A stretch of 64,000 nucleotides of DNA from IMG/VR virus record IMGVR_UViG_3300042259_000159; one strand, 5' to 3'. The translations under genes were made by a program, and so were the position numbers. Below are positions 1-55,738 of the stretch, in pieces. Source of the DNA: a virus. Position 1 is the stretch's first letter, and every line of letters starts with the position of its first letter. The notes below the pieces were generated by a model. It saw only the letters and a program-made list of their open reading frames with translations. It was not told where the DNA came from and did no database searches.

Positions 1-407
1 GTATGGGTGTTAAGTATCAACTCGTTCGCGTGAACAACACCGTTGCGCTTTTTCTGGGCCAATCCGCCGTCGTCCATGTACCAAATGGCGATGTGGATTG
101 CAGACAGCCTGTTCAGGAGTTTCCGGTTGTAGATGTTTTTATAGCCATCTTTGTATAATATCCTTCTCAGTGTTTTACCCCATTTAGTTGTGCTTATATA
201 AGTTCGGTAGCTATCAAATCCGTTATTATTTTTGTAGGTGATGTCAGAGCACTTCACCCCTTCGGAACGTAGATACGCGATTTTCCACAGCAAGTAATCT
301 TTTTGAGCTGCGCAGTGCAGTATCGATCCGCTCCCAGTTTTACCTAAGTGTCCGTCGCCCAAGATGACACTTAGTAATGCAGTTCGTGAACTTCTGTTAA
401 ACTTCAT
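1..407 (-). CDS. LAGLIDADG homing endonuclease (3' end cut by window edge)
   Basis: Minus-strand ORF with ATG at 405-407 and RBS (rc of aagcctcc 411-418). Hand translation MKFNRSSRTALLSVILGDGHLGK...IAIWYMDDGGL shows two LAGLIDADG-type motifs. Not in the ORF track because it runs off the window. Confidence 0.7.
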   Translation of the reverse strand, partial: MKFNRSSRTALLSVILGDGHLGKTGSGSILHCAAQKDYLLWKIAYLRSEGVKCSDITYKNNNGFDSYRTYISTTKWGKTLRRILYKDGYKNIYNRKLLNRLSAIHIAIWYMDDGGLAQKKRNGVVHANELILNTH

Positions 408-463
408 GTTAAGCCTCCAAGCACTGTTGTGCTGTTTAAGTCGACATTTAGTCGTTGCACCTT

Positions 464-955
464 CTACCATAAGTAGTTACGGGAGATGTCCTTATAAGAT
501 CTCCGACTACGGATGTCGTCGTAGATATGCTTAGGTATCCCCATAAGGTCTCGAATTTCCTTTGCAGAGTGTCTGCCATCGGCAATCATCTGGCAAATTC
601 TATGCACCTTGTCATCAGGGAGTGTGCTATGTGGACGCTTGCACAACTTGTTCTTGAATGCGTGCTTCCGATTTTCAGATGGCGTCACCCACTCAAGATT
701 GTTCTTGTGGTTATCAATCTTAATCCCATTCTTATGATTGACAACTTTGCCTTCTTCGTAGCCTTGCACATATGTGTAAGCCACAAGTTTATGCACAAAG
801 ATACGAAGAGTCTTTCCTTCAGAGGAGAGGGTTACTCGCTTGTAACCTGTTCTATTAAGGTCAGTGCGCAACACTCTTCCTGTTTCTGAATTTAAGACAA
901 CACCCTCTTCATTAACGAGGTACTTTTCAAAACCTTTTATTGCGACTGGTCTCAC
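464..955 (-). CDS. HNH homing endonuclease
   Basis: Track ORF 163 aa. N-terminal FEKYLVNEEGVV (NUMOD4-like) and HNH core VNHKNGIKIDNHKNNLEWVTPSEN. Confidence 0.8.
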   Translation of the reverse strand: MRPVAIKGFEKYLVNEEGVVLNSETGRVLRTDLNRTGYKRVTLSSEGKTLRIFVHKLVAYTYVQGYEEGKVVNHKNGIKIDNHKNNLEWVTPSENRKHAFKNKLCKRPHSTLPDDKVHRICQMIADGRHSAKEIRDLMGIPKHIYDDIRSRRSYKDISRNYLW

Positions 956-1023
956 ACCTAATCTCCTTATAGTAGCTTGGCTCAGGATTGTCTCTGAGAG
1001 AGTTCCCCTGAATTCACACAGTT

Positions 1024-2010
1024 TTACGCGGGCATCAATTTACCCGCCCCGAAGTAGAAGGTCTCTCCTAGTCTTCGTCCTCTTGTGGCTTTTGTCAGGC
1101 CAAGCCAAGGCCACGGCCTTCCGTATTCGGGCTTAGTTCTTGCTTTTTCTTTTAAGGTAGAACCCTTGACGATACGGGTGTTCTTTGGGACTACAGTCTT
1201 CCACTTGGTGGCTTGCAGACACTCCGCTACCTTCCCTTCGAGGAGACAGTCATTAACATCCTTACACGGAAGCTCAGCAACATGCCCTCCGGGGAAGATA
1301 CGAACAAACTCTTCTGCTGCTTTCTGACCGGGTTCGTCCATGTCAGGGACGTACACTACCTTCTCAAACAGCTGACGAATCTTGTTTGCATGTTGGAGAA
1401 CAGCCTTCTGCACACTTCCTGCTCCTGAAGGAAGGCTCACAACAGCAGGAATGAGATGTTTGTATTGGGTGTTTGCTACGCTATCCCTGAGCATTTGATA
1501 CAAAGACATTGCATCAATCTCACCTTCGGTGATGTACAGAGTCTTTGCTCCAGCTGTGATAGCTTGTTTCCAACCAAAGAACGAAGCCCCTTTCAAAGAG
1601 CCTATAGCCCACATCCTCTTATCTTTCAGGATTCGTGCTTTATAAGCAGTGAGCTGCCCTCCTTCATCCGTGTAAGGAAAGAATACGATGTCAGGAGTAG
1701 AGCCATCCATAGGTGAGACACCTACTTTGACATTGAAATGCTCAAGGGTTTCTTTCCTCAGCTTTCTTGAAGGAAGAGGATGAGAGAGAAGACTAATTAT
1801 GTGTTTAATTTCTTCGTCTATCTCTTCCTTCGTCTTTTTAGCCACTACAGGAGTGTAGCCTTCAGGTTTGTCCTTATAGGGGTCAGGGACATATTTTCCA
1901 CAAGAGAAACAGTAGCCATCATAGCTGCCATCTTCTTGTAAAAACACTTGTAAACCTGAAGCTGTTCCACAAGAGTGAGGCAATTTTTCTACGCATACTC
2001 CTCGTTTCAT
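1024..2010 (-). CDS. DNA primase (zinc-binding domain + TOPRIM)
   Basis: Track ORF 328 aa. Cys-rich N-terminus (CGTASG...CFSCGKY) and TOPRIM acidic motifs (EGEIDAMS, DMDEPGQKAA). Confidence 0.75.
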   Translation of the reverse strand: MKRGVCVEKLPHSCGTASGLQVFLQEDGSYDGYCFSCGKYVPDPYKDKPEGYTPVVAKKTKEEIDEEIKHIISLLSHPLPSRKLRKETLEHFNVKVGVSPMDGSTPDIVFFPYTDEGGQLTAYKARILKDKRMWAIGSLKGASFFGWKQAITAGAKTLYITEGEIDAMSLYQMLRDSVANTQYKHLIPAVVSLPSGAGSVQKAVLQHANKIRQLFEKVVYVPDMDEPGQKAAEEFVRIFPGGHVAELPCKDVNDCLLEGKVAECLQATKWKTVVPKNTRIVKGSTLKEKARTKPEYGRPWPWLGLTKATRGRRLGETFYFGAGKLMPA

Positions 2011-2093
2011 ACCTCCTCCATGTTAGAAGTTAAAGGGGGAATTAACTTCCCCCTATTTATATATACGTCACAGACGAGAGAATGTGACAATTT

Positions 2094-2879
2094 TTATTGC
2101 ATATAATTCCGAATTGCTCTAGCGTATGCTTCAAGAGCAGTGCCCATAATGCCCGGAGCAGTGTTCACTTCCAAGACGTAAGCCATATTCGCCCGCTGGT
2201 TGTAGATAACATCCACTGCTCCGAAGTCAAGCCCAAGAGCTTTAACAGCGAGGAGAGCCTGATTCTGAACTTGGAAGGGGCAGGTGTCATTTACGTCAGC
2301 TCCGTCTTTGTCAGTCCGAACAAAGATGAATCCCTTCTCATGGTTGCGGATACGCCAATCCACATTCTTAATATTCATTTCGGGATTGAGGGCTTTCCTC
2401 GTGATGTCGATGATTCTCCCGTTAAAGACATGGACACGATACTCCTGCTTTTTCTTGATGTAAGCAGTGTAGAGAGGAGCCTCAGGAACTTTGCCATGAG
2501 GCTCCACCAATTCAATTCCCTTTCCGCCATACCCAACGAGAGTGTGACGAACGACTACACAACCTCCGTTTTCCGCCCACAACTGAGCTCTGTCTCGGTC
2601 GATAGTGAAGGCGGGAAAATTGACATACTCTTCATCTTCAAACACTTCAAAAGTACGAAGCTTGTTGGAAGCAATTGCCACTGCCTCAAAGTCGTTAAGC
2701 ACACGACAATCCTCAGGGATGTGCTTAGGACGGGTAGAGCAGCCCCAGTTGAGCACCATTTTATCGGGGGTCCATTTCCACTTGCTGCGTTCAGCTCGAA
2801 TGCGGAGAACACCCAATTCAGTAGCAAGGGCTTTAGCGGACGTAGACTCCATTTTGTAAGGCAGAATAAACAGTTTCAT
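2094..2879 (-). CDS. ATP-grasp family ligase
   Basis: Track ORF 261 aa. Glycine-rich loop GYGGKGIE and C-terminal VLEVNTAPG typical of the ATP-grasp fold. First gene of a tightly packed minus-strand cluster. Confidence 0.75.
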   Translation of the reverse strand: MKLFILPYKMESTSAKALATELGVLRIRAERSKWKWTPDKMVLNWGCSTRPKHIPEDCRVLNDFEAVAIASNKLRTFEVFEDEEYVNFPAFTIDRDRAQLWAENGGCVVVRHTLVGYGGKGIELVEPHGKVPEAPLYTAYIKKKQEYRVHVFNGRIIDITRKALNPEMNIKNVDWRIRNHEKGFIFVRTDKDGADVNDTCPFQVQNQALLAVKALGLDFGAVDVIYNQRANMAYVLEVNTAPGIMGTALEAYARAIRNYMQ

Positions 2880-2889
2880 TTTTTGTCTC

Positions 2890-3714
2890 CTAGATGTCTA
2901 TTAAAGGTTCGTCGATAAACACTGCGTTCATAAAGTCAATGCCATTGACAATAGAGTAGCAGCGATAAAGCTGTCTTTTGAACGAAGCGTTAAAGTCTTC
3001 GTAGGCAAGAGCGAAGGGAAACACTTCCCTCGTAAAGGCTATTGCGTCTTTAGACGCTTCTTTCAGGAGGGCATGAGGGTCTTCAAAAGTACAAGCTTTC
3101 TCCCGAAGAGAGAGGAGAAGGCGGAGCCACTGCTCAATCACTGCGATGTCCACAGTCCCACGCATAGCTCTGAACTCAATCGAACCATACTGAGGCGTAG
3201 CCTTGATGTTCATGCTTGCATAACGAATGTCGTTGTCATCCAAGGCATTAAAGTTCATGCTTTTTGCAAGACCCTCCAGTTTGAAGATGAGTCCTTCCGC
3301 ATCAAAGGAAGAGAGGCAGAAGAGATTGCCTTTACGCGTTTCTCCACAAAACTCCAGAAGAGCGTCTTCATAAAGCAAGTAGAGTATAACAAAGTTGAAC
3401 CACTGGCCCACTGTCAATTTTTGAACGTTAATATGAACATGAACAGATGTTCTGTCCGAGAGGACAACATCCGCTCTCCTGAGATGTTCTCTCAGCATAC
3501 GGAGCCGACGACAAGCCCCCGGGAAGCTGATGGGTTGAGGAAGGACGTATTCCTTCGGGTCATGCCCCCCAATAGGACGAAGAGAAGGTTCGATATGTAC
3601 CTGCCACCCATTCACCTGACGGGGGAGGTCACGACCTTCCACCTCTATTTCAATGCCAATGTCCCCATTCTTAGGGACCAACCCCAGCATATCGGCAATA
3701 GTTATTTCAGCCAT
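2890..3714 (-). CDS. putative amidoligase (glutamine-synthetase-like COOH-NH2 ligase)
   Basis: Track ORF 274 aa. N-terminal GIEIEVEG motif resembles the E-x-E nucleotide/metal site of GS-like amidoligases. Assignment from motif recall only. Confidence 0.45.
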   Translation of the reverse strand: MAEITIADMLGLVPKNGDIGIEIEVEGRDLPRQVNGWQVHIEPSLRPIGGHDPKEYVLPQPISFPGACRRLRMLREHLRRADVVLSDRTSVHVHINVQKLTVGQWFNFVILYLLYEDALLEFCGETRKGNLFCLSSFDAEGLIFKLEGLAKSMNFNALDDNDIRYASMNIKATPQYGSIEFRAMRGTVDIAVIEQWLRLLLSLREKACTFEDPHALLKEASKDAIAFTREVFPFALAYEDFNASFKRQLYRCYSIVNGIDFMNAVFIDEPLIDI

Positions 3715-4268
3715 TCTTCTCCCACCACCTCTTTGATGTAGTTAGCATAGAAGTTGTCTGCCACAATAAACTTTTCTTCATCAATATCTGCCACAGGCAT
3801 AGTCCGATAGAAAAGACTCCGCTCCCCAATAGCGAATTCCCTATGGAAGGCTATGCTTCTTCTTCGAGAACGGTCTTTCTCAAAGCATTCTTCCACCGTA
3901 GGGTAGTCGGCTATAATGGTCTTTGCCAAGTCTCTTACATTGGGTTGAGCACTTATCCCTACATAGTTGGAACGAAGGTCCAGACGGTCAAGAACCAATC
4001 CTTGCTTCTGCTTCCGATGGGGCCAGCGAGCCACATACATTGAGACCCCAACTAGGGTGTTCACATAGCCCAAAGGAGGAGAGGCAAAGTCCCATCCCTC
4101 ATCCCTAATGTGGATGCGAGCATCTTCTCCTTCTTCATCAAGAATGTCATACCCATTAGCAAATCCATCTTCCACATGCCGGATGTAGAAGGGGCTGCCA
4201 TTATACCTCACTACCGTTCCTGCCAGACGCATATTAGCGTCATGGTCGTTATTAAATTTCAACAGCAT
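3702..4268 (-). CDS. hypothetical protein within amidoligase cluster
   Basis: Track ORF 188 aa; overlaps neighbours by a few codons, consistent with operon packing. Confidence 0.5.
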   Translation of the reverse strand: MLLKFNNDHDANMRLAGTVVRYNGSPFYIRHVEDGFANGYDILDEEGEDARIHIRDEGWDFASPPLGYVNTLVGVSMYVARWPHRKQKQGLVLDRLDLRSNYVGISAQPNVRDLAKTIIADYPTVEECFEKDRSRRRSIAFHREFAIGERSLFYRTMPVADIDEEKFIVADNFYANYIKEVVGEEWLK

Positions 4269-5043
4269 GGGGCACTCCCAGATTGTACTTCTTAATAAGA
4301 GCGACTGCCGAATCTACATCCGAAGTGTTGATGATGTTGGTGATGTCTCCCTCTTCCTCAGCCAAGTCTCTTCCTGCAAGCAAGTCAACAACAGCTTGTC
4401 GGGAAGCGGAGAACACCCAACGCATCAGACGCTCTTCTTTAAGCCAAGCATTGGACAGAGTGCGATATTCCATGCCGTAAGGCTTAACACGAAAAGCCCC
4501 TGCCTTCCCGTAGAGTTCTCTCCTTTTGGTGTCCTTGTCGAACAGAAGAGAAGGCAATCCAAGGTAGAAATCCAGCTGCCGTGCAAGCTGACACGAAGCA
4601 AGGAAAGCTCCGAAGTCGTTCACATCATGCTCCATATAGCCGATATGAACATGCCCAGCAGCAGTGCGGAAGTCTCGATTACCGTCAGGAGAAGGGTTGA
4701 TGTCCTGCGTCCACCCATTGTAGTCGGGGTCACACCCCAATTCAAGAGCGGCAGGAGGCTGAGTAGCCATATACTCCTTGCCAAAATGAGCCACAGGCTC
4801 AATGACAATTTCCTCCTTCACCATACGACGAAGCTGAGCGAATACATGCTCAATGTTGCTGACGAAGGTGTTTTCATCAGCTGCCGGCTCAATGTTAAAC
4901 TCAAGAGCCATACCATCCACCTGTACAGCCCCCTTCTCAACAGGGAAAGGGGCTTCCTTAGTCCCGGGAATGAGGCCGTAGCCGGAGATGAACTTCCCAT
5001 TGTCCTTCACAAACAGTTCGGGGTCGGTGCCAATGTATATCAT
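4252..5043 (-). CDS. hypothetical protein, possible second COOH-NH2 ligase-like enzyme
   Basis: Track ORF 263 aa (MIYIGTDPELFV...AAGHVHIGY). Sits between the amidoligase-like gene and the amidotransferases. Family assignment tentative. Confidence 0.4.
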   Translation of the reverse strand: MIYIGTDPELFVKDNGKFISGYGLIPGTKEAPFPVEKGAVQVDGMALEFNIEPAADENTFVSNIEHVFAQLRRMVKEEIVIEPVAHFGKEYMATQPPAALELGCDPDYNGWTQDINPSPDGNRDFRTAAGHVHIGYMEHDVNDFGAFLASCQLARQLDFYLGLPSLLFDKDTKRRELYGKAGAFRVKPYGMEYRTLSNAWLKEERLMRWVFSASRQAVVDLLAGRDLAEEEGDITNIINTSDVDSAVALIKKYNLGVPHAVEI

Positions 5044-5054
5044 GTTATTCCTCC

Positions 5055-6266
5055 TTAAAAGGGTATATTAGAGTCATACAGGGAGACAAAGTCTTTGTCT
5101 TTCAGGCATTCCAAACAAACAGAATCGTATTCCGAGATGATTGCGATTTTCTCATTCCTCTCATAGAACTTCCCGCACCAGTCGCAGGAGTGGTAAGGGT
5201 GATGCGGGTAGCTTATCTTATACTCAATCTTAGGGGCTTCTTCCTCCTTCTGATTGATGGGAATGATGGAACCCACAGTGAAATACGTCTTCTTGTCGAG
5301 CGTTTGCCCGATGAACAATATCTTTGCCCGAAGGGGGACGCCCACAGGAACATCCGAGTTGCCATATGCGAAGTGACGAGCTTCAATATCCTCTCCAATC
5401 ACCTCACCGAAGTAGTCGACATTCTTCCCATATGTGCTTTCCCTTTTGTGGAACTTCACAGTGGCATACTCATCTTCTCGATAGGTGCGAAGATTCCCCA
5501 CTGCTTTTCGTGTTGCCCTCTCCCAATTATTCCACCCTTGGTGGATGTACGTTGTCTTGACAGGAGGCGTGTACGAGCAAGGAGTGAGCTTCTTGGTAGT
5601 GAGTTTAAGGCCGTTGCTCAAGTTCCACGAGTAGAGAACATTTTCTTTCACTTCGCAAGCTTTCATGCAGGGTATTTTGTTTCTCCAACATGCCGCATGA
5701 ATGAAGAAAGGCTCAGAAGCCCAGAACACCACCTTCTTTTCTTTGTCAAGCATATAGTAGAGAGGCCGCTTATCGTTCCGCAGCATGTTGAGCGTGTCTT
5801 CGTTTTCGTCATACCAGACAAGAGCAGCTGCCCCGCAAAGATTCTGCCAAGTGTCTTCCACACCATGTATGGACATATGGTGGTAGATGTTGGAAGAATC
5901 AACATCGAATTTCTTGTAATCCGCCAGAAGATGTTGGGCTGTAAGTGTTCCGTTATGCACTCCTGTAATGTGCCCATGCTGAAACGGATGAGCGTTTTCC
6001 TCGATAATAGTTCCTTTCGTTGCTGCTCTATTATGCCCTATAAGGCATTTCAACACTTGTGAAAAGATAGGCTGTACTTTACCAATGGTGACAAAGTCAT
6101 AGGCTGCCAGAAGAGATTTTTCGATAGTGACTTTCTTCGTATGGCGATTTACTCCAGCGAGACCCACGGAATCAACTCCGCGTATTTCGTCAAAGATGAG
6201 CATATCCTTGACTGCCTTCTCCTCTTTCGTTGTAATCAGTCCAGCTGCTCCAATAATACCACACAT
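5055..6266 (-). CDS. class II (Ntn-type) glutamine amidotransferase domain protein
   Basis: Track ORF 403 aa. Starts MCGIIG, i.e. Cys immediately after Met as in Ntn amidotransferases. Confidence 0.7.
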   Translation of the reverse strand: MCGIIGAAGLITTKEEKAVKDMLIFDEIRGVDSVGLAGVNRHTKKVTIEKSLLAAYDFVTIGKVQPIFSQVLKCLIGHNRAATKGTIIEENAHPFQHGHITGVHNGTLTAQHLLADYKKFDVDSSNIYHHMSIHGVEDTWQNLCGAAALVWYDENEDTLNMLRNDKRPLYYMLDKEKKVVFWASEPFFIHAACWRNKIPCMKACEVKENVLYSWNLSNGLKLTTKKLTPCSYTPPVKTTYIHQGWNNWERATRKAVGNLRTYREDEYATVKFHKRESTYGKNVDYFGEVIGEDIEARHFAYGNSDVPVGVPLRAKILFIGQTLDKKTYFTVGSIIPINQKEEEAPKIEYKISYPHHPYHSCDWCGKFYERNEKIAIISEYDSVCLECLKDKDFVSLYDSNIPF

Positions 6267-6391
6267 AGAATACTCCTTTTTCGCACAGAAAAGGGGTTTT
6301 AAGCCCCGTTTATTTGTTTTGTGGACAATGAGATGTCATTGCATCTACCATCGCTTAGAACCAATTCTCGAAAGAATTGGCTCCAAGAGGG

Positions 6392-7006
6392 TTAGATGCC
6401 GAATACATCCTTCAGTACAGTGAAGAACAGCGTTCGAGTGTCATCCTTCCCACCATATTCAGGATGGGGTTGGAAGCACAGGCTCTTAGTCTTCGGGTAG
6501 ACGACAATTTCAGCTTGGTCGTCACGAAGAACAGAGCGCACCCTTCTTTCAGCCGAGAGAAGAGTGTTGTCGATGCAGTCTTCCACTTCTCCGAATCCTT
6601 CAAGACGACCATGACGGGCAGGAATCATCATCTGGTGGTGAGTGGAGGTGACTTTGTACTTTTCTCCCCTCCAATCGAGAGTGTGTGTGCCTCTGATGGC
6701 ATGACCCGTGACATCCTGCCGCATACTTCCACCATTCATCACATTGAGGAATTGCCCCCCACGGCATATTCCCACCAATGCTGCGTTGTGTTGTGTGGCA
6801 AAGAGGTAGTTGGTTATGTCAGCAATGTCTCGCTGAATACAATTATGGGAAGCCCTGTTGAGTTCACCATACAGAGAAGGGGTGACATCATATCCGCCAG
6901 AGAACACAAAGAGGTCAGCTTCCTCCATCTGTGTTGTCATCTGGTAGCCTGCATTGAGGAACATGGTGGACACAGCAATGTCTTGCGTAGACATAAAGAA
7001 TTTCAT
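6392..7006 (-). CDS. class I glutamine amidotransferase-like protein (gamma-glutamyl hydrolase type)
   Basis: Track ORF 204 aa. Nucleophile elbow GICRGGQ. Confidence 0.7.
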   Translation of the reverse strand: MKFFMSTQDIAVSTMFLNAGYQMTTQMEEADLFVFSGGYDVTPSLYGELNRASHNCIQRDIADITNYLFATQHNAALVGICRGGQFLNVMNGGSMRQDVTGHAIRGTHTLDWRGEKYKVTSTHHQMMIPARHGRLEGFGEVEDCIDNTLLSAERRVRSVLRDDQAEIVVYPKTKSLCFQPHPEYGGKDDTRTLFFTVLKDVFGI

Positions 7007-7815
7007 CGAAATCTCCTCAGGTTGTCTATTGTGTTGACGACAATTTCATCAGTGCCGGGAATATCTTTGTCGTATTCCAGCATGAGAGTATTGCCATTCC
7101 GTGTCACTCTTTTCCCGCTCTCTTTGAGAGCAGATTCAATAAGGTCTATGACAAGAGGCCGATTGGTGTAACGGTTCAGAGTTTTTTCTACTCCTCTGCC
7201 CCAGTCACCCCCATTAAACGGGTCATCCAAGTGCCTTTTTTCCAACTGCTCCCCGTATATGAAGGCGGACGCAGACCTCACCGTAAGACCAGTATCGAAG
7301 AGGGAATGAGGTCCTCTTCTCGACGCAATATATTTCTCCCCACGATAGAAGTAGGCACTAAGCAACGCCACGGGTGGAGACACTTCAAACTTCTTCATAT
7401 ACTCCACCATCTTTTCTATACGGAAATCCTCATGGACGTCCCACGGAAGACGAGCAAGAGTAGCTGCCGTCAGCAAGATGTTTCTGGGAGCGTCCAGAGA
7501 AATGTACACCCCTCCTTTCTTCTTGTTTGTGTTGTTCTCATAATAGCCCTTGAAGCCGCTTTTCTTGAACAGCCAAGGCCAGTAGTGTTCTTTCAAGAAC
7601 TCACCTTCAGACCTAATACCTCCTGCCGGCCCGGGGACACAGCAGAGGTGAGTATATCCATTTTTGAGGGTGTGCGAATTCTTGAGCCATGCAAGGCACA
7701 CTTCGTTCGGAAAAGATTCACACTCTCTCGTTTTTTCGTTCACGAGAAGGTAGGGTTGAGACCTTACGTTATCATCCTCCTGACATTTCTTCACTTCCTT
7801 AAAGAAACTCCTCAT
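7003..7815 (-). CDS. hypothetical protein (last gene of amidoligase cluster)
   Basis: Track ORF 270 aa; stop overlaps the start of the class I amidotransferase gene. Confidence 0.5.
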   Translation of the reverse strand: MRSFFKEVKKCQEDDNVRSQPYLLVNEKTRECESFPNEVCLAWLKNSHTLKNGYTHLCCVPGPAGGIRSEGEFLKEHYWPWLFKKSGFKGYYENNTNKKKGGVYISLDAPRNILLTAATLARLPWDVHEDFRIEKMVEYMKKFEVSPPVALLSAYFYRGEKYIASRRGPHSLFDTGLTVRSASAFIYGEQLEKRHLDDPFNGGDWGRGVEKTLNRYTNRPLVIDLIESALKESGKRVTRNGNTLMLEYDKDIPGTDEIVVNTIDNLRRFR

Positions 7816-8077
7816 GTTTCTCTCCTTTCTTCTCTCTGTATAATATATATATATATATTATATAATAATATATATTATACAGAAGTTAATAGTTTAGTTA
7901 AGAGCAGGAAATCCTGCCCTCTCTAAAGTATTAACAGTAAGGGTCTTCGTCCTCTATCGACCAGTCAATCGGCTCCTCAGGCATAATCGTCACCATTTAT
8001 TTGCGAGTAATCTATTCCTTGTTATTGAAAGTTTCTTGTCACATTTTCCATTTTCCAACGTATAATATATTAAGAGA

Positions 8078-8479
8078 CTAGTTCTTGCGACACCAGATTC
8101 CGTCACAAGACGGAGGCTTATTCATCTGGTCAACGTGGAGAGACACACTCTCAATAGGGTATACAATCATGTTATCGTCCCCTTCTTCTTCCACATTGAG
8201 GTAGTAGGACGACTGTTTTTCAAAGTCAAAGTACCTCACTGATGTAACTTTCAGACAAACATGAGCGTTCTCTTTGTAGAAGAAGTCCCCAACATCAAGG
8301 TCGGTGAAAGCCCTCTTCAGGCTAGTATGTCGGCTAACAACTGCAACTCTGGTCATACTCTCTTCTCCTTCGTTTTCTTCCTTACCTTTCAGATAGGGAA
8401 TTTTCAATATTGCAAACACGCTGATACCCATAGCCGCTACCAGAAAGAAAGCTTCACTCCATAACATAGGAGGCTCCAT
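8078..8479 (-). CDS. membrane protein
   Basis: Track ORF 133 aa with hydrophobic N-terminal helix (LWSEAFFLVAAMGISVFAIL). Confidence 0.45.
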   Translation of the reverse strand: MEPPMLWSEAFFLVAAMGISVFAILKIPYLKGKEENEGEESMTRVAVVSRHTSLKRAFTDLDVGDFFYKENAHVCLKVTSVRYFDFEKQSSYYLNVEEEGDDNMIVYPIESVSLHVDQMNKPPSCDGIWCRKN

Positions 8480-8481
8480 GA

Positions 8482-8718
8482 TTAGCGTTCAAGCCAAGAA
8501 TACTCTTCAGTAATACGGAAAAGTGAACAAAGTGGGTATTTATATACGACACGCTTCTTATCTTCCTCAACCAAAATACAGAAAAGACCGCCTTTTGTAT
8601 ATGTGTTGACGACATTCTCAAGCGTAATTGGTTGGCTGGATTCATTTCTATGTATTGAAATTTTCATACCTTTCTCAATAGCGTCAGTCATTGTACTACT
8701 CCTTTTAAGTATGCGCAC
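8482..8718 (-). CDS. hypothetical protein
   Basis: Track ORF 78 aa, co-directional and tightly packed with neighbours. Confidence 0.4.
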   Translation of the reverse strand: MRILKRSSTMTDAIEKGMKISIHRNESSQPITLENVVNTYTKGGLFCILVEEDKKRVVYKYPLCSLFRITEEYSWLER

Positions 8719-8963
8719 CCTACGTATATAGAGCCGATGTGGAATTTCGTACCCTTAAGTTCAGGCTGTTTCCTTCCAACTTTCTTCAGAAATCTTCTGA
8801 AAGCACGGAGGGTACGACAGGGAGGCCCATGACTGGAGAAGCCTTTCTCTGTCGTACACTCTTCAAGCGGAAGCCAGATGCCATCACAATACCAGAGACC
8901 ATCGGACGCAGGTCTCCAGAAGTAACGTCGCAAACGGGCACCTCGCGAGCTAAAAAGTTTCAT
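8688..8963 (-). CDS. hypothetical protein
   Basis: Track ORF 91 aa. Confidence 0.35.
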   Translation of the reverse strand: MKLFSSRGARLRRYFWRPASDGLWYCDGIWLPLEECTTEKGFSSHGPPCRTLRAFRRFLKKVGRKQPELKGTKFHIGSIYVGCAYLKGVVQ

Positions 8964-9028
8964 CAGTCTCCCCTACCTTGTAAATGGCACTATTTTTCAA
9001 AACCCTGTCTAGGCTTTTTGCAGACATC

Positions 9029-9274
9029 TTACTTCCTCCTCTCCATCCATATCTGACGTATCTCTTGGAAGAGACTAAGACCTTCATGAAGAATAAGTGC
9101 AAGCACCCCTACCCAAGACAACACCGCAACAATAGCACAAACGATGAGTGCCTCACCAAATGTGTTGACATAACATCCATACGTCCTTTGTAGGCCAATA
9201 AGGACTAGGCAGCCTATATATGCAACAACTACCCCGCTCAGGTAAGTGGAAACGACAAGCTCTATTCCCGTCAT
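9029..9274 (-). CDS. small membrane protein (two hydrophobic helices)
   Basis: Track ORF 81 aa, strongly hydrophobic. Confidence 0.45.
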   Translation of the reverse strand: MTGIELVVSTYLSGVVVAYIGCLVLIGLQRTYGCYVNTFGEALIVCAIVAVLSWVGVLALILHEGLSLFQEIRQIWMERRK

Positions 9275-9427
9275 TTTACTTCCTCCGTGCTTTGTCCAGC
9301 ATCATCCTCTGGTTTTCAGACAGTTGTCCCCAATACACTTGGGGATTGTACAAGGCTTTCCACGAGGGCAGACGCAGTTCCTTAGCCAGTGACTTTTCTA
9401 TTGCGTTAGGCATAACCTTCATCCTTG

Positions 9428-9766
9428 TTAATATTCATAGTATTCGCGTAAAGCGTCGTTGTTCCATGCCGGCTCATACACAGGCTTGTCATGTGCTTCT
9501 GCGAGCTTGTGAAGCACGTCGACAATGAAGGAAACGCCATTCTTTGCTTTCTTCGGATTGTTCTTCAGCTGGGCTTCAGCCGCAAGTCTCCCTACCCACT
9601 TCACATATCGGTCAGAGTTGGAACACTTCGCCACACCATACTCCACCTCTCCACTAGGGAGAGAACGGTATGCCACCGTAGCTCCACCGAAAGGATGATA
9701 AGGGTAGAAGTCACCGTTACGGTTGATGTAGCTGCGGCGGTAGTGAAAGAACGACACTTTATCCAT
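9428..9766 (-). CDS. hypothetical protein, PFGGATV-motif paralog family
   Basis: Track ORF 112 aa with HPFGGATVAYR...GVAKCSNSDRYVKWVGR; shares the motif with 9784-10050 and 28085-28573. Confidence 0.55.
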   Translation of the reverse strand: MDKVSFFHYRRSYINRNGDFYPYHPFGGATVAYRSLPSGEVEYGVAKCSNSDRYVKWVGRLAAEAQLKNNPKKAKNGVSFIVDVLHKLAEAHDKPVYEPAWNNDALREYYEY

Positions 9767-9783
9767 TTCTATTCTCCTTTGTC

Positions 9784-10050
9784 CTATTCCCAGCGACCAC
9801 GGTAGTCAGGTGTATTGTATGCTGCTCTTATGTACGCTACTATTCCATCGAACACGTCTTTTTTCATTGTTAAAGGGGCAGACAGAGCGTCTATGTATGC
9901 GAGGTTACGCCCGATGCGTTTCACATACTGTTCAGAGTTACAGCATCGGGCAAGGCCAAATGCTACAGCATCCCCTACCTTGCGGTAGAAAACAGTAGCG
10001 CCACCAAACGGATGAAGACGCAATTCACCTTTACGGCTTATGTAGGGCAT
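9784..10050 (-). CDS. hypothetical protein, PFGGATV-motif paralog family
   Basis: Track ORF 88 aa with HPFGGATVFYR...GLARCCNSEQYVKRIGR; tandem paralog of 9428-9766. Confidence 0.55.
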   Translation of the reverse strand: MPYISRKGELRLHPFGGATVFYRKVGDAVAFGLARCCNSEQYVKRIGRNLAYIDALSAPLTMKKDVFDGIVAYIRAAYNTPDYRGRWE

Positions 10051-10069
10051 TGCTCCCTTCTCTTAATTG

Positions 10070-10312
10070 CTACAACACATCACACACACGAGTCCCATTG
10101 TTATAGTAGTATCGGTATTCCCGCACCTTAACAAGTTGTCCTTCCTTGTTAGGTGACATTACACCAATGGAAATGGAAGGAAATATTCCTAGCTCCAATT
10201 CATGCAATGCTACCTTATAAGCGGCGTCGAATGTTGAAAACAATTGGTATCGGTAGGTGTATACGGACATTACACTGTCTTCCAGAATAATTTCATTCCG
10301 CAGACTTTTCAT
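10070..10312 (-). CDS. hypothetical protein
   Basis: Track ORF 80 aa. Confidence 0.4.
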   Translation of the reverse strand: MKSLRNEIILEDSVMSVYTYRYQLFSTFDAAYKVALHELELGIFPSISIGVMSPNKEGQLVKVREYRYYYNNGTRVCDVL

Positions 10313-10428
10313 ATTATTTCCTCACTTTCTTTCATCAATCGATTTGCAATCCCACCGAATGATGATAGTAGCTTATGCTACCAACAAGGGAAGGGGCGAC
10401 GCATAGACGCATCACCCCTTCCCTTGCT

Positions 10429-10797
10429 TTAGAACACCATATCGAGAACCGCCGACACGGCTTTGTTTAGTGTATGGAATCTTGCTTCTTCTTCCATCCT
10501 ATCGCCCGTGATATTCACGAGCACAATGCTATCGAGGTGCGGAAGGAGGGTATAGTCCTCCTCGTTGATAGAAAAGAAAAGCCCTTCCTCGCTTTCATAT
10601 GCGGCGATAAGGCGCTTGGCTACGTCCTGTTTATCCTTCTCCAGCCGGAGACGCTTTACGGCCTCGCTGTTTTCAACGTAGTCATGGCAATCCGTTCCAC
10701 CTTTACGGGCAACGAACGCACCACCGCCACAAGTCAGGGGCTTTCCTTCACCCCACCGGCAAGTCTGGCAATATTGTGTGTTTTGCATAGCAGTCAC
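10429..10797 (-). CDS. hypothetical Cys-rich protein
   Basis: Track ORF 122 aa (CQTCRWGEGKPLTCGG...C). Confidence 0.45.
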   Translation of the reverse strand: MTAMQNTQYCQTCRWGEGKPLTCGGGAFVARKGGTDCHDYVENSEAVKRLRLEKDKQDVAKRLIAAYESEEGLFFSINEEDYTLLPHLDSIVLVNITGDRMEEEARFHTLNKAVSAVLDMVF

Positions 10798-10866
10798 TAC
10801 TCCATTGGTTATGGTTCATCACATAATTGCAAGCCCTATTGCTAGGGCCTGCTATATGGGACGAAG

Positions 10867-11532
10867 CTAATCAAGGGAAATGCCGCAATCAAATGCGAGG
10901 CTTTTCACACGGTCGAGAAATTCTTTCATATTGTCCTCGGGAATGTATTGTCCCTCGGCCAGTTTTTTCAAGTCAGACTTGATTGCATTGACTGCTTTTC
11001 CCTTGTACGGTTTTTCAGGCTTGGCAGGATTAAAATCATACCATGACTGAGCCGCGAGGCGGGCTTTCACGCTCATGACATTAAAAGACTTGGCGATAAG
11101 CTTCCCTTTTTTGTACGGTTCGCCGTTCGGATCGAGAAGCGTTTCACCGTCCGCTTTCTCCTTCGCCGTTTCGAATTTCCCCTTTTTCATATTCCAGCGT
11201 ATAGCGGACGCGCTTGCGTCCAGAACCGGCTTGTTGTCCTTATCGTATTGTATGGGACCGTCGCAGAATACCCATAACATATAGTTTTGTACTGCCGTGA
11301 TGTTAATTGCCCGTGTGCCGCCGATACGTGTCATGAATTCGCTCATAAGGCGGCAACCTACTTCGCCGTCAGTATCTTCCGCCTTCGCCATTACAGCGTC
11401 GACGATAACCGCCTGGACGGCTTCGCGGAAGGACAATGCCATTGCCTCGATATCCGGCATGGCGGCTGCGAACCTTTCAGCATGCTGGCGGACAACAGGA
11501 TTACTAATCTTGCTTGCGTCGAAGTTGCTCAT
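10867..11532 (-). CDS. hypothetical protein
   Basis: Track ORF 10867-11592; start placed at the internal Met (MSNFDASK), so the 5' end is uncertain. Confidence 0.5.
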   Translation of the reverse strand: MSNFDASKISNPVVRQHAERFAAAMPDIEAMALSFREAVQAVIVDAVMAKAEDTDGEVGCRLMSEFMTRIGGTRAINITAVQNYMLWVFCDGPIQYDKDNKPVLDASASAIRWNMKKGKFETAKEKADGETLLDPNGEPYKKGKLIAKSFNVMSVKARLAAQSWYDFNPAKPEKPYKGKAVNAIKSDLKKLAEGQYIPEDNMKEFLDRVKSLAFDCGISLD

Positions 11533-11599
11533 GGTCTTTACCTCACTTACGTTATTTGTTTGTGGTATGAATGAACAAGCCACCTTGCGCATTCAAGCC

Positions 11600-13050
11600 C
11601 ACAAACAAACAAAACCTTGCTAGGGCTTGTTTGTCTATGGCGCACAAAGCGTCTATCCTACTTTTCGCCATAGTCCATGATGCGCGTTCCCCGATAGCCT
11701 AGGAATAATTTGTCCTTTCTAAGCGAAGAAATACGCGGAACCATGCTACTTTTCGAATATCCGCTTTGCTTTTCGGAGCGGTGGCCCGCTGCAACCACTT
11801 AAGGAGTCTAGACCACGTCACGCCGCTGAATTCTATCAACGGTCTGCGATGTAAGACGGTACGGAACCTATATAGGACGGTTACCTATCGGTGTCAACCG
11901 GTTTTTTCGTCCGCTTGCCGTACCGTGCCGGTATGCCGCTGATATAGCATACGCCGTGCCAACGTGTGCAACATGTTGAAATATCAGCACTATTTTTTGT
12001 GCCCTGAAACGCTATGCCCTAACCGCTTTATGTAAACCGTTGAAATGACTAGCTTTTCATATAATGCCGGTTAAAAATTTTGTACCGCTTTTCTGCTAGT
12101 GAATGAAAACTATGGCAATGCCGTAATGTAAGCGCCTGATATAATTGGCGGTTTAAAAAATTATACCATTTCAGGCAAAAGTATAAAAAATTGAACCGAC
12201 CATTTTCTTGTATAATGAGACGCGATTGCAATTATTATGCCAAACTGAATGGAACGCCTTGTGCTTATGCAATTGCCATGCCAATTGATATGGCACAATA
12301 AGTGCATAAGCAAGCATTGTGCCAACAAAGTTATCAGCCAGTTTAGCATGAAGCGTGCCATAATGTCATAAGTGAATGATAGCAGCATGATAGCATGGTT
12401 CAGCAATCTGAATATAGAATGTTATGTCTCGTTTATTGATCATTGCATATAAGCAAAATGATCAATAAGAGAGACAATATTATATAATAAGTATATACTT
12501 GTGTCGAGCGTAAGCGAGACGATATAATACTATATAGAATACACGTAAGTGCCCATAATGATTGGACTATAGGTGAATGAGTAGTTGAAACATGATAGCA
12601 GTAGGGTAATGACCTATATATGCCGTAGGCGATATAGGATACCAGATAAATATGCCGTAGGCGATATAATATTCCCTAACCGATATAGATTTACAGGGGG
12701 GTAGTAGGGGGTGAGGGGGTGTCCTTTTGGATGCACTACCCCTTAAAAATTTCTCATAGAAATTATCGCCCCAGCCAAAAATATTTTCTCCAATTCCCCC
12801 GCACATTTACACACAAATATGTCGAGCGTAGCGAGACGATATAAAAATATTTTGTCACACTTTTGATTTTCTTACGTATATACATATAGGGGGATAAGGG
12901 GGGAAGAGGAATAAGTATTATAACGAAAGAAGAAGAAGAAGAAATAAGATGGTAGATATATAAAGGGGAGGGCTCTGCTAAGAAAGCAGCCCTCCCCTTA
13001 TAAGAAATAGATGAGGAAGAGAGAGGCTAACATAACAAAGGAAAAGTAGG
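11600..13050. repeat. 1.4 kb non-coding region with short direct repeats separating leftward early genes from the rightward tail-fiber gene
   Basis: No convincing ORFs. Repeated units include atatgccgtaggcgatata (x2), gtcgagcgta(a)gcgagacgatata (two copies), cggtt(t)aaaaa(a)tt-type units, and G-rich gggggtagtagggggtgaggggg. Confidence 0.4.
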
Positions 13051-13057
13051 AGAGAAG

Positions 13058-15461: not shown

Positions 15462-15470
15462 GGGGTAATT

Positions 15471-22685: not shown

Positions 22686-22698
22686 AAGGAGTAGTGAA

Positions 22699-55206: not shown

Positions 55207-55245
55207 GTATTTTTTATCTACCATTCCGCCATTCCCGCATTTATT

Positions 55246-55654: not shown

Positions 55655-55658
55655 AGAA

Positions 55659-55730: not shown

Positions 55731-55738
55731 AAATTTTT

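What the first reader, a model, noticed from the sequence alone, without database searches (positions are those of the whole stretch)
2094..7815. Seven-gene ATP-grasp / amidoligase / glutamine amidotransferase cluster: candidate small-molecule, peptide or nucleic-acid modification pathway
Seven co-directional, overlapping minus-strand genes encode an ATP-grasp ligase, two putative GS-like COOH-NH2 amidoligases, an Ntn-type class II amidotransferase (MCGIIG), a class I amidotransferase (GICRGGQ) and two proteins of unknown function. This enzyme combination has been predicted bioinformatically in phages to build peptide-like adducts on proteins, nucleotides or DNA, but the chemistry and target are not established. 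It sits next to a primase and in a genome with ThyX, NrdDG, dUTPase and DNA methyltransferases, so a nucleotide or DNA hypermodification role is plausible.
Basis: partly seen in the sequence, partly recalled or inferred. Interest (0 to 1): 0.85.

Follow-up and report, generated by a model that had tools for sequence, protein, structure and literature searches.

The report
Known phage amidoligase/ATP-grasp gene cassette
This is a new copy of a gene cassette described in podophages since 2009: three ATP-dependent ligases plus enzymes that cut glutamine or gamma-glutamyl amide bonds. Its product is still untested, and the evidence points away from DNA hypermodification.

Summary
Seven co-directional minus-strand ORFs lie at exactly 2094-7815. 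They encode a RimK-like ATP-grasp, an Amidoligase_2, a COOH-NH2_lig, an Ntn class II amidotransferase (MCGIIG), a C26 class I amidotransferase-like hydrolase (GICRGGQ) and two proteins with no Pfam match.

The cassette is already described (Iyer 2009, Hardies 2013, Duhaime 2017). The literature calls it a putative "peptidoglycan modification cassette". I found no experiment on it.

The COOH-NH2 ligase has relatives in 319 phage records. Across 59 related loci the core is ligase, unknown g3, amidoligase, Ntn amidotransferase and ATP-grasp, plus C26 and/or a gamma-glutamyl cyclotransferase, usually just upstream of the primase/helicase gene. Catalytic residues are conserved. The shared chemistry is ATP-dependent carboxylate-amine ligation and gamma-glutamyl or glutamine amide cleavage.

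The DNA-hypermodification idea is weak:
- ThyX, NrdDG, dUTPase and the methyltransferases lie 33-47 kb away.
- That segment differs in composition and has its own second replication set.
- The window merges two IMG/VR contigs.
- Three cultured LUZ24-like phages carrying the cassette have restriction-cuttable or nanopore-normal DNA.

Structure prediction failed for both unknown proteins. Verdict: a new member of a known but uncharacterised kind.

The parts
7874..7901 (-). Sigma-70-like promoter match (TTAACT, 16-nt spacer, TATAAT; 10 of 12) 59 nt upstream of the g7 start. Possible operon promoter.
   Evidence: This is a consensus match only, and promoter-like sites are not enriched over shuffles.
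7003..7815 (-). g7: fast-evolving accessory protein of unknown function and first gene of the cassette. Its stop overlaps the g6 start by 4 nt.
   Evidence: No Pfam, PHROG, NCBIfam or PADLOC hit. Only 84-96% identical relatives turn up in the 5.8-billion and 1.84-billion protein searches. A profile built from related loci finds the family in 22 of 59 loci, always 5' of the C26 gene. Conserved residues include C40, R122 and H170. The AF2 model is unusable (pLDDT 38).
6392..7006 (-). g6: class I amidotransferase-fold, Peptidase_C26-type (gamma-glutamyl) hydrolase with a Cys-His-Glu triad.
   Evidence: PF07722, E 3e-17; phrog_7218, E 7e-42. C81, H181 and E183 are conserved in at least 97% of 50 homologues. 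The closest solved chains are Lin1909, a chain deposited as 'Probable glutamine amidotransferase' (7d4r; assigned to P. aeruginosa SpuA from my own recall, not checked) and PuuD, all weak matches.
5055..6266 (-). g5: Ntn (class II) glutamine amidotransferase domain (residues 1 to ~250), followed by a poorly conserved C-terminal region ending in a CxxC...CxxC motif.
   Evidence: GATase_6, E 7e-16; phrog_4736, E 1e-78. The MCG start is kept in most homologues. R80, N105, G106 and D123 are conserved in at least 97%; from established GlmS knowledge these match the glutamine-binding residues. Only the N-terminal ~200-250 aa align in most relatives. The CxxC...CxxC motif occurs in 37 of 52 homologues.
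4252..5043 (-). g4 (LIG4): phiEco32-type COOH-NH2 ligase of the GCS2/glutamine-synthetase-like fold. It is the marker gene of the cassette.
   Evidence: PF14395, E 5e-12; phrog_3815, E 4e-88. Relatives occur in 319 phage records. D7, E9, E48, H131, H133, R174, E192 and R194 are conserved in at least 97% of 59 homologues.
3702..4268 (-). g3: universal cassette protein of unknown function, always wedged between the two GS-like ligase genes. It carries an R-x-P-x-R-x-x-[KR]-Q-G motif (R81, P83, R85, Q89, G90).
   Evidence: phrog_11055, function unknown, E 4e-24. A profile finds it in 47 of 59 loci, and in 43 of 45 complete cassettes, directly 3' of LIG4. No Pfam or PDB sequence match. The AF2 model is unusable (pLDDT 43.5).
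2890..3714 (-). g2 (AMID2): Amidoligase_2, the second GS-like carboxylate-amine ligase.
   Evidence: PF12224, E 1.6e-9; phrog_7469, E 3e-56. E22, E24, E55, H92, H94, E116, R127, E180 and R182 are conserved in at least 97% of 47 homologues.
2094..2879 (-). g1 (GRASP): RimK/MptN-like ATP-grasp ligase and last gene of the cassette.
   Evidence: phrog_2599, E 4e-80. Weak matches to MptN, the RimK family, Ddl and GshB, all below curated cut-offs. K73, E146, R148, K162, D223, E237 and N239 are conserved in at least 97% of 48 homologues.
2036..2053 (-). GC-rich hairpin between the ATP-grasp stop and the primase start. Possible weak terminator or attenuator.
   Evidence: Pattern match only, with a poor T-tail.
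1024..2010 (-). Conserved downstream neighbour, not part of the pathway: the N-terminal (primase) part of a primase/helicase gene split by HNH and LAGLIDADG-like endonuclease ORFs.
   Evidence: Toprim_2 and phrog_239, E 5e-82. The helicase part, a sigma-like ORF at the position of the annotated sigma factor in PA11, PolA, SSB and an exonuclease follow in L002. A primase/helicase lies downstream of the cassette in 36 of 45 complete loci.

Best explanation
The locus is a new, divergent copy of the conserved podophage amidoligase / ATP-grasp / amidotransferase cassette. Iyer et al. first described it in 2009. Later papers call it the putative peptidoglycan modification cassette of RIO-1, PA11, LUZ24 and phiEco32-like phages. 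Here it sits in the early/replication region of a Zobellviridae-like podovirus segment.

Shown:
- Seven translationally coupled or closely spaced genes.
- Five enzyme families with intact catalytic residues.
- A conserved core of LIG4, g3, AMID2, the Ntn amidotransferase and the ATP-grasp.
- Every cassette that is not cut off at the contig end also carries a C26 hydrolase and/or a gamma-glutamyl cyclotransferase (GGCT).
- The marker ligase is restricted to phage-sized contigs.

Inferred mechanism:
- The two glutamine-synthetase-like ligases activate carboxylates as acyl-phosphates and join them to amines. In all characterised relatives the carboxylate is a glutamate gamma-carboxylate.
- The RimK/MptN-like ATP-grasp adds a further residue, probably glutamate.
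- The Ntn enzyme binds glutamine or a gamma-glutamyl compound. It either delivers ammonia for an amidation or removes a gamma-glutamyl group.
- C26 or GGCT removes a gamma-glutamyl group.
- The net product would be a small peptide-like, gamma-glutamyl-linked or amidated adduct made in the cytoplasm early in infection.

Target: not resolved. My ranking is:
1. A peptidoglycan precursor or other peptide-like small molecule. This is the published proposal, thought to serve superinfection exclusion or lysis preparation.
2. A protein.
3. A free metabolite.
4. DNA or nucleotides (least likely).

g3 is an obligatory non-catalytic-looking partner of the two ligases. g7 is a lineage-specific accessory protein.
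For: - Domain hits.
- Catalytic residues conserved across 47-59 homologues.
- Same gene order in T2S1 (Zobellviridae) and PA11; the permuted order with GGCT in KBNP1711 (phiEco32-like), BroderSalsa and Rembedalsseter (LUZ24-like).
- Among 45 loci with LIG4, AMID2 and GRASP: the Ntn gene is in 44, g3 in 43, and C26 and/or GGCT in 42. The three without either are cut off at the 5' end of the locus.
- The solved chains with a named function that lie nearest to g6 (PuuD) are gamma-glutamyl-amine hydrolases; the best match, Lin1909, has no named function.
- g5 keeps the residues that bind free glutamine in GlmS (plus established knowledge).
- The genome-collection scan found the ligase only on MAG contigs, mostly 43-55 kb, and on two tiny scaffolds. 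It found none in an isolate chromosome.
- The literature identifies the cassette and states the hypothesis.
Against: - No experiment exists for any member, so the chemistry rests on family-level analogy.
- All matches to characterised enzymes are far below curated cut-offs.
- The Ntn enzyme's glutamine pocket fits free L-Gln or a gamma-L-glutamyl group. It would not fit the N-acylated D-isoglutamate of murein, so the peptidoglycan target is not specifically supported.
- The constant position next to primase/helicase and DNA polymerase would equally fit a replication-linked role.
- g3 and g7 remain structurally and functionally blank.
Confidence: 0.6

Rival explanations
1. DNA or nucleotide hypermodification. 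The ligases and amidotransferases would build an amino-acid or peptide-like adduct on a base, a nucleotide precursor or replicating DNA, protecting the genome from restriction.
For: - The cassette is always in the replication module, directly upstream of primase/helicase.
- Amidoligase and amidotransferase genes of unknown role co-occur with thymidine-hypermodification genes in some viral contigs (PMC8989533).
- The best NCBIfam hit of g6, though very weak, is gamma-glutamyl-CDP-amidate hydrolase, a nucleotide-linked gamma-glutamyl case.
Against: - No hydroxymethylase, 5-HMUDK, aGPT-Pplase, DpdA or similar gene lies in the 21 kb of the cassette's own segment.
- ThyX, Nrd, dUTPase and the methyltransferases belong to a compositionally different segment with a second replication set.
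- Phage tf DNA is cut by RsaI, HpaI, EcoRV, SmaI and HaeIII.
- Phage U17 DNA is sensitive to 11 of 16 enzymes.
- Native versus amplified nanopore reads of Rembedalsseter show only nick-associated signal. Its cassette is confirmed.
- The BASEL authors attribute the restriction resistance to a dCTP deaminase and nucleotidyltransferase locus instead.
Confidence: 0.1
2. Protein tagging. The GS-like ligases (as PafA does in pupylation) and the RimK-like ATP-grasp would attach glutamate or short peptides to host proteins (ribosome, RNA polymerase, replisome) or phage proteins. C26 or GGCT would act as the removing enzyme. g3 would be an adaptor or the substrate.
For: - Two paralogous GS-like ligases flank a small conserved protein, and the nearest ATP-grasp families are RimK and MptN.
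- From my own recall of the Pfam entry for PF12224, not checked here: that family is linked with GAT-like thiol peptidases or Aig2 cyclotransferases. This agrees with the C26/GGCT alternation seen.
- g3 has an invariant basic loop, R-x-P-x-R-x-x-K-Q-G.
- Aravind-group papers propose protein modification for related phage ATP-grasp enzymes (PMC4431377).
Against: - The g3 C-terminus is not conserved and is not Glu/Gln-terminated, so g3 is not Pup- or LysW-like.
- The g5 pocket residues suit free glutamine or a gamma-glutamyl compound.
- No target is evident, and no virion or host-protein mass data exist.
Confidence: 0.2
3. Free-metabolite pathway. The cassette would make and turn over a gamma-glutamyl amine, polyamine or glutathione-like peptide, or re-route glutamine/glutamate nitrogen, to condition the infected cell. 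Possible uses are polyamine handling for DNA packaging, redox control or nitrogen supply.
For: - Every enzyme family here has members in gamma-glutamyl metabolism. From established knowledge: GCS2/PuuA-type ligases, GshB/RimK-type ATP-grasps, PuuD (C26), GGCT, and EgtC/Dug3-type Ntn amidohydrolases.
- The PDB matches of g6 include PuuD.
- A weak EgtC match for g5.
- C26 and GGCT appear to substitute for each other.
Against: - No oxidoreductase, transporter or other metabolic partner is conserved with the cassette.
- Hosts already make glutathione and polyamine conjugates.
- The universal unknown protein g3 has no counterpart in such pathways.
Confidence: 0.15

Closest known systems
Podophage amidoligase / ATP-grasp / amidotransferase cassette. 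Other names: 'phiEco32-like COOH-NH2 ligase system' (Iyer et al. 2009) and 'peptidoglycan modification cassette' in RIO-1/PSA-HP1, PA11, LUZ24, tf, PaP3, phiEco32, 7-11 and CW02 (Hardies 2013; Duhaime 2017, PMC5498523).
   Same: Same protein families, same co-directional arrangement and same position upstream of primase/helicase. The order C26, Ntn, LIG4, g3, AMID2, GRASP is identical to PA11 and the oyster Zobellviridae phage T2S1.
   Different: - Only 26-61% amino-acid identity to any relative, and no nucleotide-level match.
- No GGCT gene in this copy.
- An extra fast-evolving first gene, g7, shared with about a third of loci.
- No ~230-290 aa ORF between the ATP-grasp and primase genes, unlike PA11.
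Gamma-glutamyl-polyamine/amine pathways: PuuA/PuuD of E. coli and PauA/PauD(SpuA) of P. aeruginosa.
   Same: A GS-like ATP-dependent ligase paired with a C26 class I amidotransferase-fold gamma-glutamyl hydrolase. PuuD is among the nearest solved relatives of g6, as is a chain deposited only as 'Probable glutamine amidotransferase' that I take from recall to be SpuA.
   Different: Matches are weak (E 0.14-0.4). There are no oxidase or dehydrogenase steps. The phage ligases belong to other GS-like families (PF14395, PF12224). The cassette adds an ATP-grasp, an Ntn amidotransferase and g3.
Pupylation enzymes PafA and Dop: two paralogous GS-like enzymes acting on the C-terminal Glu/Gln of a small protein. 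Comparison from my own knowledge.
   Same: Two GS/GCS-fold paralogues encoded around a small conserved protein, with a ligase plus amide-cleaving logic.
   Different: g3 is 188 aa with a non-conserved, non-Glu/Gln C-terminus. There are no proteasome genes. No sequence match to PafA or Dop appeared in the PDB or NCBIfam searches.
Thymidine hypermodification gene clusters of phages ViI, M6, SP10 and phiW-14 (PMC8989533).
   Same: Phage-encoded and located near replication genes. Amidoligase and amidotransferase Pfam domains of unknown role occur in some such metagenomic clusters.
   Different: The defining enzymes (dUMP hydroxymethylase or TET/JBP, 5-HMUDK, aGPT-Pplase) were not found near the cassette. 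Cassette-bearing cultured phages have cuttable, nanopore-normal DNA.
Peptidoglycan amidation systems MurT/GatD and AsnB/LtsA. Comparison from my own knowledge.
   Same: Glutamine amidotransferases of class I and class II are coupled to ATP-dependent activation of stem-peptide carboxylates. A stem peptide offers three free carboxylates, matching three ligases.
   Different: The activating enzymes there are Mur-ligase-like or adenylating asparagine-synthetase domains, not GS-like or ATP-grasp. No homology was detected. The replacement of C26 by GGCT in some phages argues that C26 is a hydrolase rather than an ammonia donor.

Membership tests
Podophage amidoligase/ATP-grasp/amidotransferase ('peptidoglycan modification') cassette | A phiEco32-type COOH-NH2 ligase (PF14395) is present | tested here: met
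   g4: PF14395, E 5e-12, 46 bits against a cut-off of 25; phrog_3815, E 4e-88.
Podophage amidoligase/ATP-grasp/amidotransferase ('peptidoglycan modification') cassette | A second GS-like ligase of the Amidoligase_2 family (PF12224) is present | tested here: met
   g2: PF12224, E 1.6e-9, 38.4 bits against a cut-off of 22.
Podophage amidoligase/ATP-grasp/amidotransferase ('peptidoglycan modification') cassette | An ATP-grasp ligase is present | tested here: met
   g1: phrog_2599, E 4e-80. The Mg/ATP residues are conserved. Pfam and NCBIfam matches are below cut-off.
Podophage amidoligase/ATP-grasp/amidotransferase ('peptidoglycan modification') cassette | A class II (Ntn) glutamine amidotransferase is present | tested here: met
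   g5: GATase_6, E 7e-16; N-terminal MCG; R80, N105, G106 and D123 conserved.
Podophage amidoligase/ATP-grasp/amidotransferase ('peptidoglycan modification') cassette | A gamma-glutamyl-cleaving partner is present: a class I GATase-like C26 hydrolase and/or a GGCT | tested here: met
   g6: Peptidase_C26, E 3e-17, with an intact Cys-His-Glu triad. This copy has no GGCT. C26 and/or GGCT occur in 42 of 45 complete cassettes.
Podophage amidoligase/ATP-grasp/amidotransferase ('peptidoglycan modification') cassette | The conserved hypothetical protein lies between the two GS-like ligase genes | tested here: met
   g3 (phrog_11055) lies directly 3' of LIG4 in 43 of 45 complete cassettes.
Podophage amidoligase/ATP-grasp/amidotransferase ('peptidoglycan modification') cassette | A co-directional block in the early/replication region, upstream of primase/helicase | tested here: met
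   A primase/helicase lies downstream in 36 of 45 loci.
Podophage amidoligase/ATP-grasp/amidotransferase ('peptidoglycan modification') cassette | The cassette actually modifies peptidoglycan (the function its name implies) | not testable with these tools
   No experiment was found in the held literature. The name reflects a hypothesis.
Phage thymidine/base hypermodification cluster | A base-precursor enzyme (dUMP/dCMP hydroxymethylase or TET/JBP dioxygenase) in the same genome module | tested here: not met
   None was found among the ORFs of window 1-15750 or the adjoining 5.7 kb of L002. The only thymidylate-synthase-like gene, a ThyX-type at 52662-53279, lies in the other segment. The rest of the podovirus-like genome was not available.
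Phage thymidine/base hypermodification cluster | 5-HMUDK kinase and aGPT-Pplase, or an equivalent transferase acting on DNA | tested here: not met
   No such PHROG or Pfam hit for any cassette or neighbouring ORF.
Phage thymidine/base hypermodification cluster | Virion DNA carries a non-canonical base or resists restriction | not testable with these tools
   This phage is uncultured. In relatives with the cassette, tf, U17 and Rembedalsseter DNA behaves as unmodified. Gordonclarkvirinae resist restriction-modification for unknown reasons.
RimK (ribosomal protein S6 glutamate ligase), the PHROG annotation of g1 | Equivalog-level similarity to RimK | tested here: not met
   NF007764 (RimK equivalog): 18.5 bits against a cut-off of 331. 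TIGR00768: 33.6 against 143. PDB RimK chains match at E 0.06-0.07. g1 is an ATP-grasp of the RimK/MptN neighbourhood, not RimK.
GlmS (the PHROG annotation of g5: glutamine-fructose-6-phosphate aminotransferase) | A C-terminal sugar isomerase (SIS) domain | tested here: not met
   Only residues 1 to ~110-190 match GlmS or GATase models. The C-terminal half has no Pfam domain, here or in four homologues.
Known anti-phage defence or counter-defence families (PADLOC) | A match to any PADLOC model | tested here: not met
   No hit for any of the seven proteins.

The most novel reading that the evidence does not exclude
The invariant trio LIG4, g3 and AMID2, with the Ntn amidotransferase and ATP-grasp, could install a gamma-glutamyl or peptide-like adduct on a component of the replication machinery or on nucleic acid, in a sparse or site-specific way. 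Bulk restriction digests and motif-based nanopore analysis would miss such a mark. It would explain the cassette's constant position next to primase/helicase. It could also contribute to the unexplained restriction-modification resistance of Gordonclarkvirinae. In this reading g3, with its invariant basic R-x-P-x-R-x-x-K-Q-G loop, would be the substrate-recognition subunit.
Probability: 0.1. Interest if true: 0.8.

Novelty: new member of a known kind. Interest (0 to 1): 0.35.

Why it matters
The cassette is one of the most widespread phage enzyme modules with no experimental function. Its marker ligase has relatives in 319 sequenced phage records, including therapy-relevant Pseudomonas LUZ24-like and E. 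coli phiEco32-like phages, and in many marine podoviruses. Solving its chemistry would reveal a new way phages remodel the infected cell: cell wall, proteins, metabolites or, less likely, nucleic acid.

This metagenomic copy adds no new leverage, because cultured phages carry the same genes. What this analysis adds:
- A sharper definition of the invariant core.
- The observation that every complete cassette has a C26 and/or a GGCT gamma-glutamyl-cleaving enzyme.
- The conserved zinc-ribbon-like tail of the Ntn enzyme.
- Evidence that the apparent nucleotide-metabolism context comes from a composite sequence.

Tried and rejected
1. Nucleotide similarity. Megablast found nothing. blastn found only short 65-84% patches inside the ligase and ATP-grasp genes.
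2. Homologue searches for g7 and g3. The word-indexed 5.8-billion-protein database gave only 3 and 2 hits. Exhaustive HMMER of g7 against 1.84 billion representatives gave one real relative. A concatenated g7+g3 profile added only two more g7-family proteins.
3. AlphaFold2 of g3 (3-row alignment) and g7 (6-row alignment) gave pLDDT 43.5 and 38.3, which is unusable. I therefore ran no fold search. The deeper alignments I built from loci could not be submitted under the tool's input rule.
4. The g7+g3 profile found nothing meaningful against PDB sequences or Pfam.
5. hhalign among the accessory families (g3, g7, c14, PA11 ORF009, and the ORFs upstream of LIG4 in LUZ24-like and phiEco32-like phages) gave all probabilities below 7%, so they are not detectably related.
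6. I looked for informative domain fusions in longer homologues of the Ntn, ATP-grasp and amidoligase proteins. There were none.
7. I tested whether g3 is a LysW- or Pup-like carrier with an acidic or Gln C-terminus. I rejected this because the C-termini are not conserved.
8. The bacterial-genome scan for a non-phage context returned only MAG contigs, most of phage-genome size.
9. PADLOC gave no hit.
10. The Iyer 2009 and Hardies 2013 papers are not held. Their proposals are cited through papers that quote them.
11. Rfam found no group I intron in the split primase/helicase.

Full report
**Observation.** One search shows seven minus-strand ORFs at exactly 2094-7815.

| Gene | Coordinates | Length | Note |
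|---|---|---|---|
| g1 | 2094-2879 | 261 aa | |
| g2 | 2890-3714 | 274 aa | |
| g3 | 3702-4268 | 188 aa | |
| g4 | 4252-5043 | 263 aa | |
| g5 | 5055-6266 | 403 aa | starts MCGIIG |
| g6 | 6392-7006 | 204 aa | contains GICRGGQ |
| g7 | 7003-7815 | 270 aa | |

Three junctions overlap. The remaining gaps are 10, 11 and 125 nt.

- g2 is Amidoligase_2 (E 1.6e-9).
- g4 is COOH-NH2_lig (E 5e-12; phrog_3815, E 4e-88).
- g5 is an Ntn class II amidotransferase (GATase_6, E 7e-16).
- g6 is Peptidase_C26 (E 3e-17).
- g1 is an ATP-grasp. It is weak in Pfam but matches phrog_2599 at E 4e-80.
- g3 matches only an unknown-function PHROG.
- g7 matches nothing, including NCBIfam and PADLOC.

A promoter-like site lies just upstream of g7, and a hairpin lies between g1 and the primase gene. 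Both are pattern matches only.

**Provenance.** The first 15,043 bases of the window are identical to IMG/VR contig IMGVR_UViG_3300042267_000152, which is 91.6 kb long. No phage record matches at the nucleotide level. The best protein relative of g4 is 57.6% identical. It comes from an oyster-associated Zobellviridae phage that has the same gene order.

**Comparative anatomy.** g4 has relatives in 319 phage records: Pseudomonas 121, Escherichia 94, Vibrio, Aeromonas, Proteus, Rhizobium, Cellulophaga and others.
- I fetched 18 IMG/VR loci, 53 loci from the bacterial genome collection and several annotated reference phages.
- All the genome-collection loci are MAG contigs, mostly 43-55 kb and so phage-sized, apart from two tiny scaffolds.
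- BLAST clustering and locally built profiles over 59 loci of at least 6 kb gave a clear picture.

Among 45 loci holding LIG4 (g4), AMID2 (g2) and GRASP (g1):
- The Ntn gene is in 44.
- g3 is in 43, always immediately 3' of LIG4.
- A primase/helicase is downstream in 36.
- C26 and/or a gamma-glutamyl cyclotransferase (GGCT) is in 42. The three exceptions are truncated at the 5' end of the locus.

Two gene orders dominate:
- Type A: [g7] C26, Ntn, LIG4, g3, AMID2, GRASP, primase. This is the order here, in PA11 and in T2S1.
- Type B: [C26] LIG4, g3, AMID2, Ntn, GRASP, [GGCT], primase. This is the order in LUZ24-like and phiEco32-like phages.

g7 looked like an ORFan in the two giant protein searches. 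It nevertheless belongs to a fast-evolving family present in 22 loci, always 5' of C26.

**Are the enzymes active?** Catalytic residues are conserved in at least 97% of homologues:
- LIG4: D7, E9, E48, H131, H133, R174, E192, R194.
- AMID2: a parallel set (E22, E24, E55, H92, H94, E116, R127, E180, R182).
- GRASP: K162, D223, E237, N239.
- C26: C81, H181, E183.
- Ntn: the N-terminal Cys, plus R80, N105, G106 and D123.

From established GlmS knowledge, the Ntn residues correspond to the oxyanion hole and to the residues that hold the alpha-carboxylate and alpha-amino group of free glutamine.

Only the first ~200-250 residues of g5 are conserved in most relatives. The C-terminal half has no Pfam domain, here or in four homologues. 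It ends in a CxxC...CxxC motif in 37 of 52 homologues.

The nearest solved relatives of g6 are Lin1909, a chain deposited as "Probable glutamine amidotransferase" and PuuD. The nearest curated families for g1 are MptN and the RimK family. All these matches are far below equivalog cut-offs.

**Mechanism (inferred).** Every family in the cassette is tied to one chemistry: ATP-dependent formation of amide bonds at carboxylates, and cleavage of glutamine or gamma-glutamyl amides. In characterised GS/GCS-fold enzymes the carboxylate is a glutamate gamma-carboxylate. The apparent interchange of C26 and GGCT suggests that C26 works as a gamma-glutamyl hydrolase rather than an ammonia donor, because GGCT cannot supply ammonia.

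I therefore propose a cytoplasmic, early-expressed pathway:
- It assembles a small gamma-glutamyl-linked or amidated peptide-like adduct using two GS-like ligations and one ATP-grasp ligation.
- The Ntn enzyme either delivers ammonia or trims.
- C26 or GGCT removes a gamma-glutamyl group.
- g3, with its invariant R-x-P-x-R-x-x-[KR]-Q-G loop, is an obligatory partner of unknown role.

**What is already known.** The cassette was described by Iyer et al. (2009) and Hardies et al. (2013). I could not read either paper.
- Papers that quote them call it a seven-gene "peptidoglycan modification cassette".
- It is thought to prevent superinfection or to prepare the wall for lysis (PMC5498523; PMC10580990; PMC11945000).
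- It is routinely listed in genome papers.
- Eight literature searches found no experimental test.

The window is composite.
- GC and 4-mer signature switch at about 14-16 kb.
- The cassette side continues in L002 with the rest of a podovirus-type replication module. That module has the helicase part of the split primase/helicase, a sigma-like ORF at the position of PA11's annotated sigma factor, PolA, SSB and an exonuclease.
- The other side has a second primase/helicase, PolA, SSB-like protein and exonuclease. It also holds all of ThyX, NrdD, NrdG, dUTPase, thymidylate kinase and the two methyltransferases.
- Window 59458-64000 comes from another IMG/VR contig of the same metagenome, overlapping by 127 nt.
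- No base-modifying enzyme appears among the ORFs of the cassette's own segment.

Experimental data on relatives also argue against bulk modification:
- Phage tf DNA is cut by five type II enzymes.
- Phage U17 DNA is cut by 11 of 16.
- Rembedalsseter, whose cassette I confirmed, shows only nick-associated signals in native-versus-amplified nanopore data.

Two points favour the DNA idea. Gordonclarkvirinae are unexplainedly restriction-resistant. Amidoligase and amidotransferase genes of unknown role accompany some thymidine-hypermodification clusters. I put this reading at about 0.1.

**Unknown proteins.** AlphaFold2 on the shallow alignments I was allowed to submit failed (pLDDT 43.5 and 38.3). 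Searches of the g7+g3 profile against PDB sequences and Pfam found nothing. The accessory families are not detectably related to each other.

**Verdict.** The cassette is a new, divergent member of a known but biochemically uncharacterised phage module. The hypermodification inference rests on a context that probably belongs to another genome segment. Interest is moderate. The open question is real, but it is long known and better addressed in cultured phages.

Noticed in passing
window 1-2010, and L002 13034-16065: The primase/helicase gene next to the cassette is split. The primase part (1024-2010) is followed by an HNH endonuclease (464-955), a LAGLIDADG-like ORF and then the helicase part. 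Rfam finds no group I intron there. Locus L004 has the same primase-HNH-primase layout with an 81% identical HNH, which suggests a homing endonuclease at a conserved site.
   Followed up: partly
window ~14000-17000: GC content and 4-mer signature switch here. To the left is a Zobellviridae-like podovirus module. To the right is a lower-GC phage segment with a complete second replication set: primase/helicase 21051-22685, PolA 22534-25119, SSB-like 19159-20031 and exonuclease 18064-19104. This is either a chimeric assembly or a mosaic genome.
   Followed up: partly
window 59458-64000: This stretch is 100% identical to a different IMG/VR contig of the same metagenome (3300042267_000191). It overlaps the end of contig _000152 by 127 nt, so the window is a scaffold or merge of at least two contigs.
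   Followed up: yes
window 63359-63571 and 63728-63997 (+): Two group I catalytic introns lie close together (Rfam RF00028, 76 and 77.5 bits). I did not identify the host gene.
   Followed up: no
window 55123-55939 and 58023-58202 (-): A cluster of six tRNA genes (Leu-taa, Leu-tag, Thr, Gln, Asn, Pro) is followed by a second Leu-taa and Leu-tag pair. The two groups flank a transposase-like ORF (56728-57846; phrog_506, E 2.5e-119). This may be a duplication associated with an insertion element.
   Followed up: no
window 48849-52220 (-): The NrdD-like ORF is 1123 aa, but only residues ~842-1119 match NrdD families. The long N-terminal part is unexplained. It could be an intein, a fusion or a mis-joined ORF.
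   Followed up: no
window 5055-5200 (C-terminus of g5), and homologues in L001-L078: The phage Ntn amidotransferase family ends in a CxxC...(8-40 residues)...CxxC zinc-ribbon-like motif in 37 of 52 homologues. I have not seen this feature mentioned in the papers read.
   Followed up: partly
L053, L056, L058, L061, L064, L078 (directly 3' of the ATP-grasp gene): A ~259-aa protein family ('c14') with an extremely acidic Asp/Glu-rich C-terminal tail follows the ATP-grasp gene in several type-B cassettes. It is a conceivable substrate for a RimK-like glutamate ligase. It is absent from the window.
   Followed up: no
L066, L067, L071, L072: A third architecture has c14, LIG4, C26, then GGCT and a second C26, but no AMID2, g3, Ntn or ATP-grasp genes. 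It occurs on MAG contigs binned to Patescibacteria, Desulfobacteraceae, Stahlbacteria and Muribaculaceae.
   Followed up: no
window 13058-14956 (+): A 632-aa tail-fibre/spike-like ORF is transcribed divergently from the early region. Only its first ~47 residues are shared with ORFs at the equivalent position in L006 and L007. This pattern is typical of a conserved virion anchor with a swapped receptor-binding part.
   Followed up: partly
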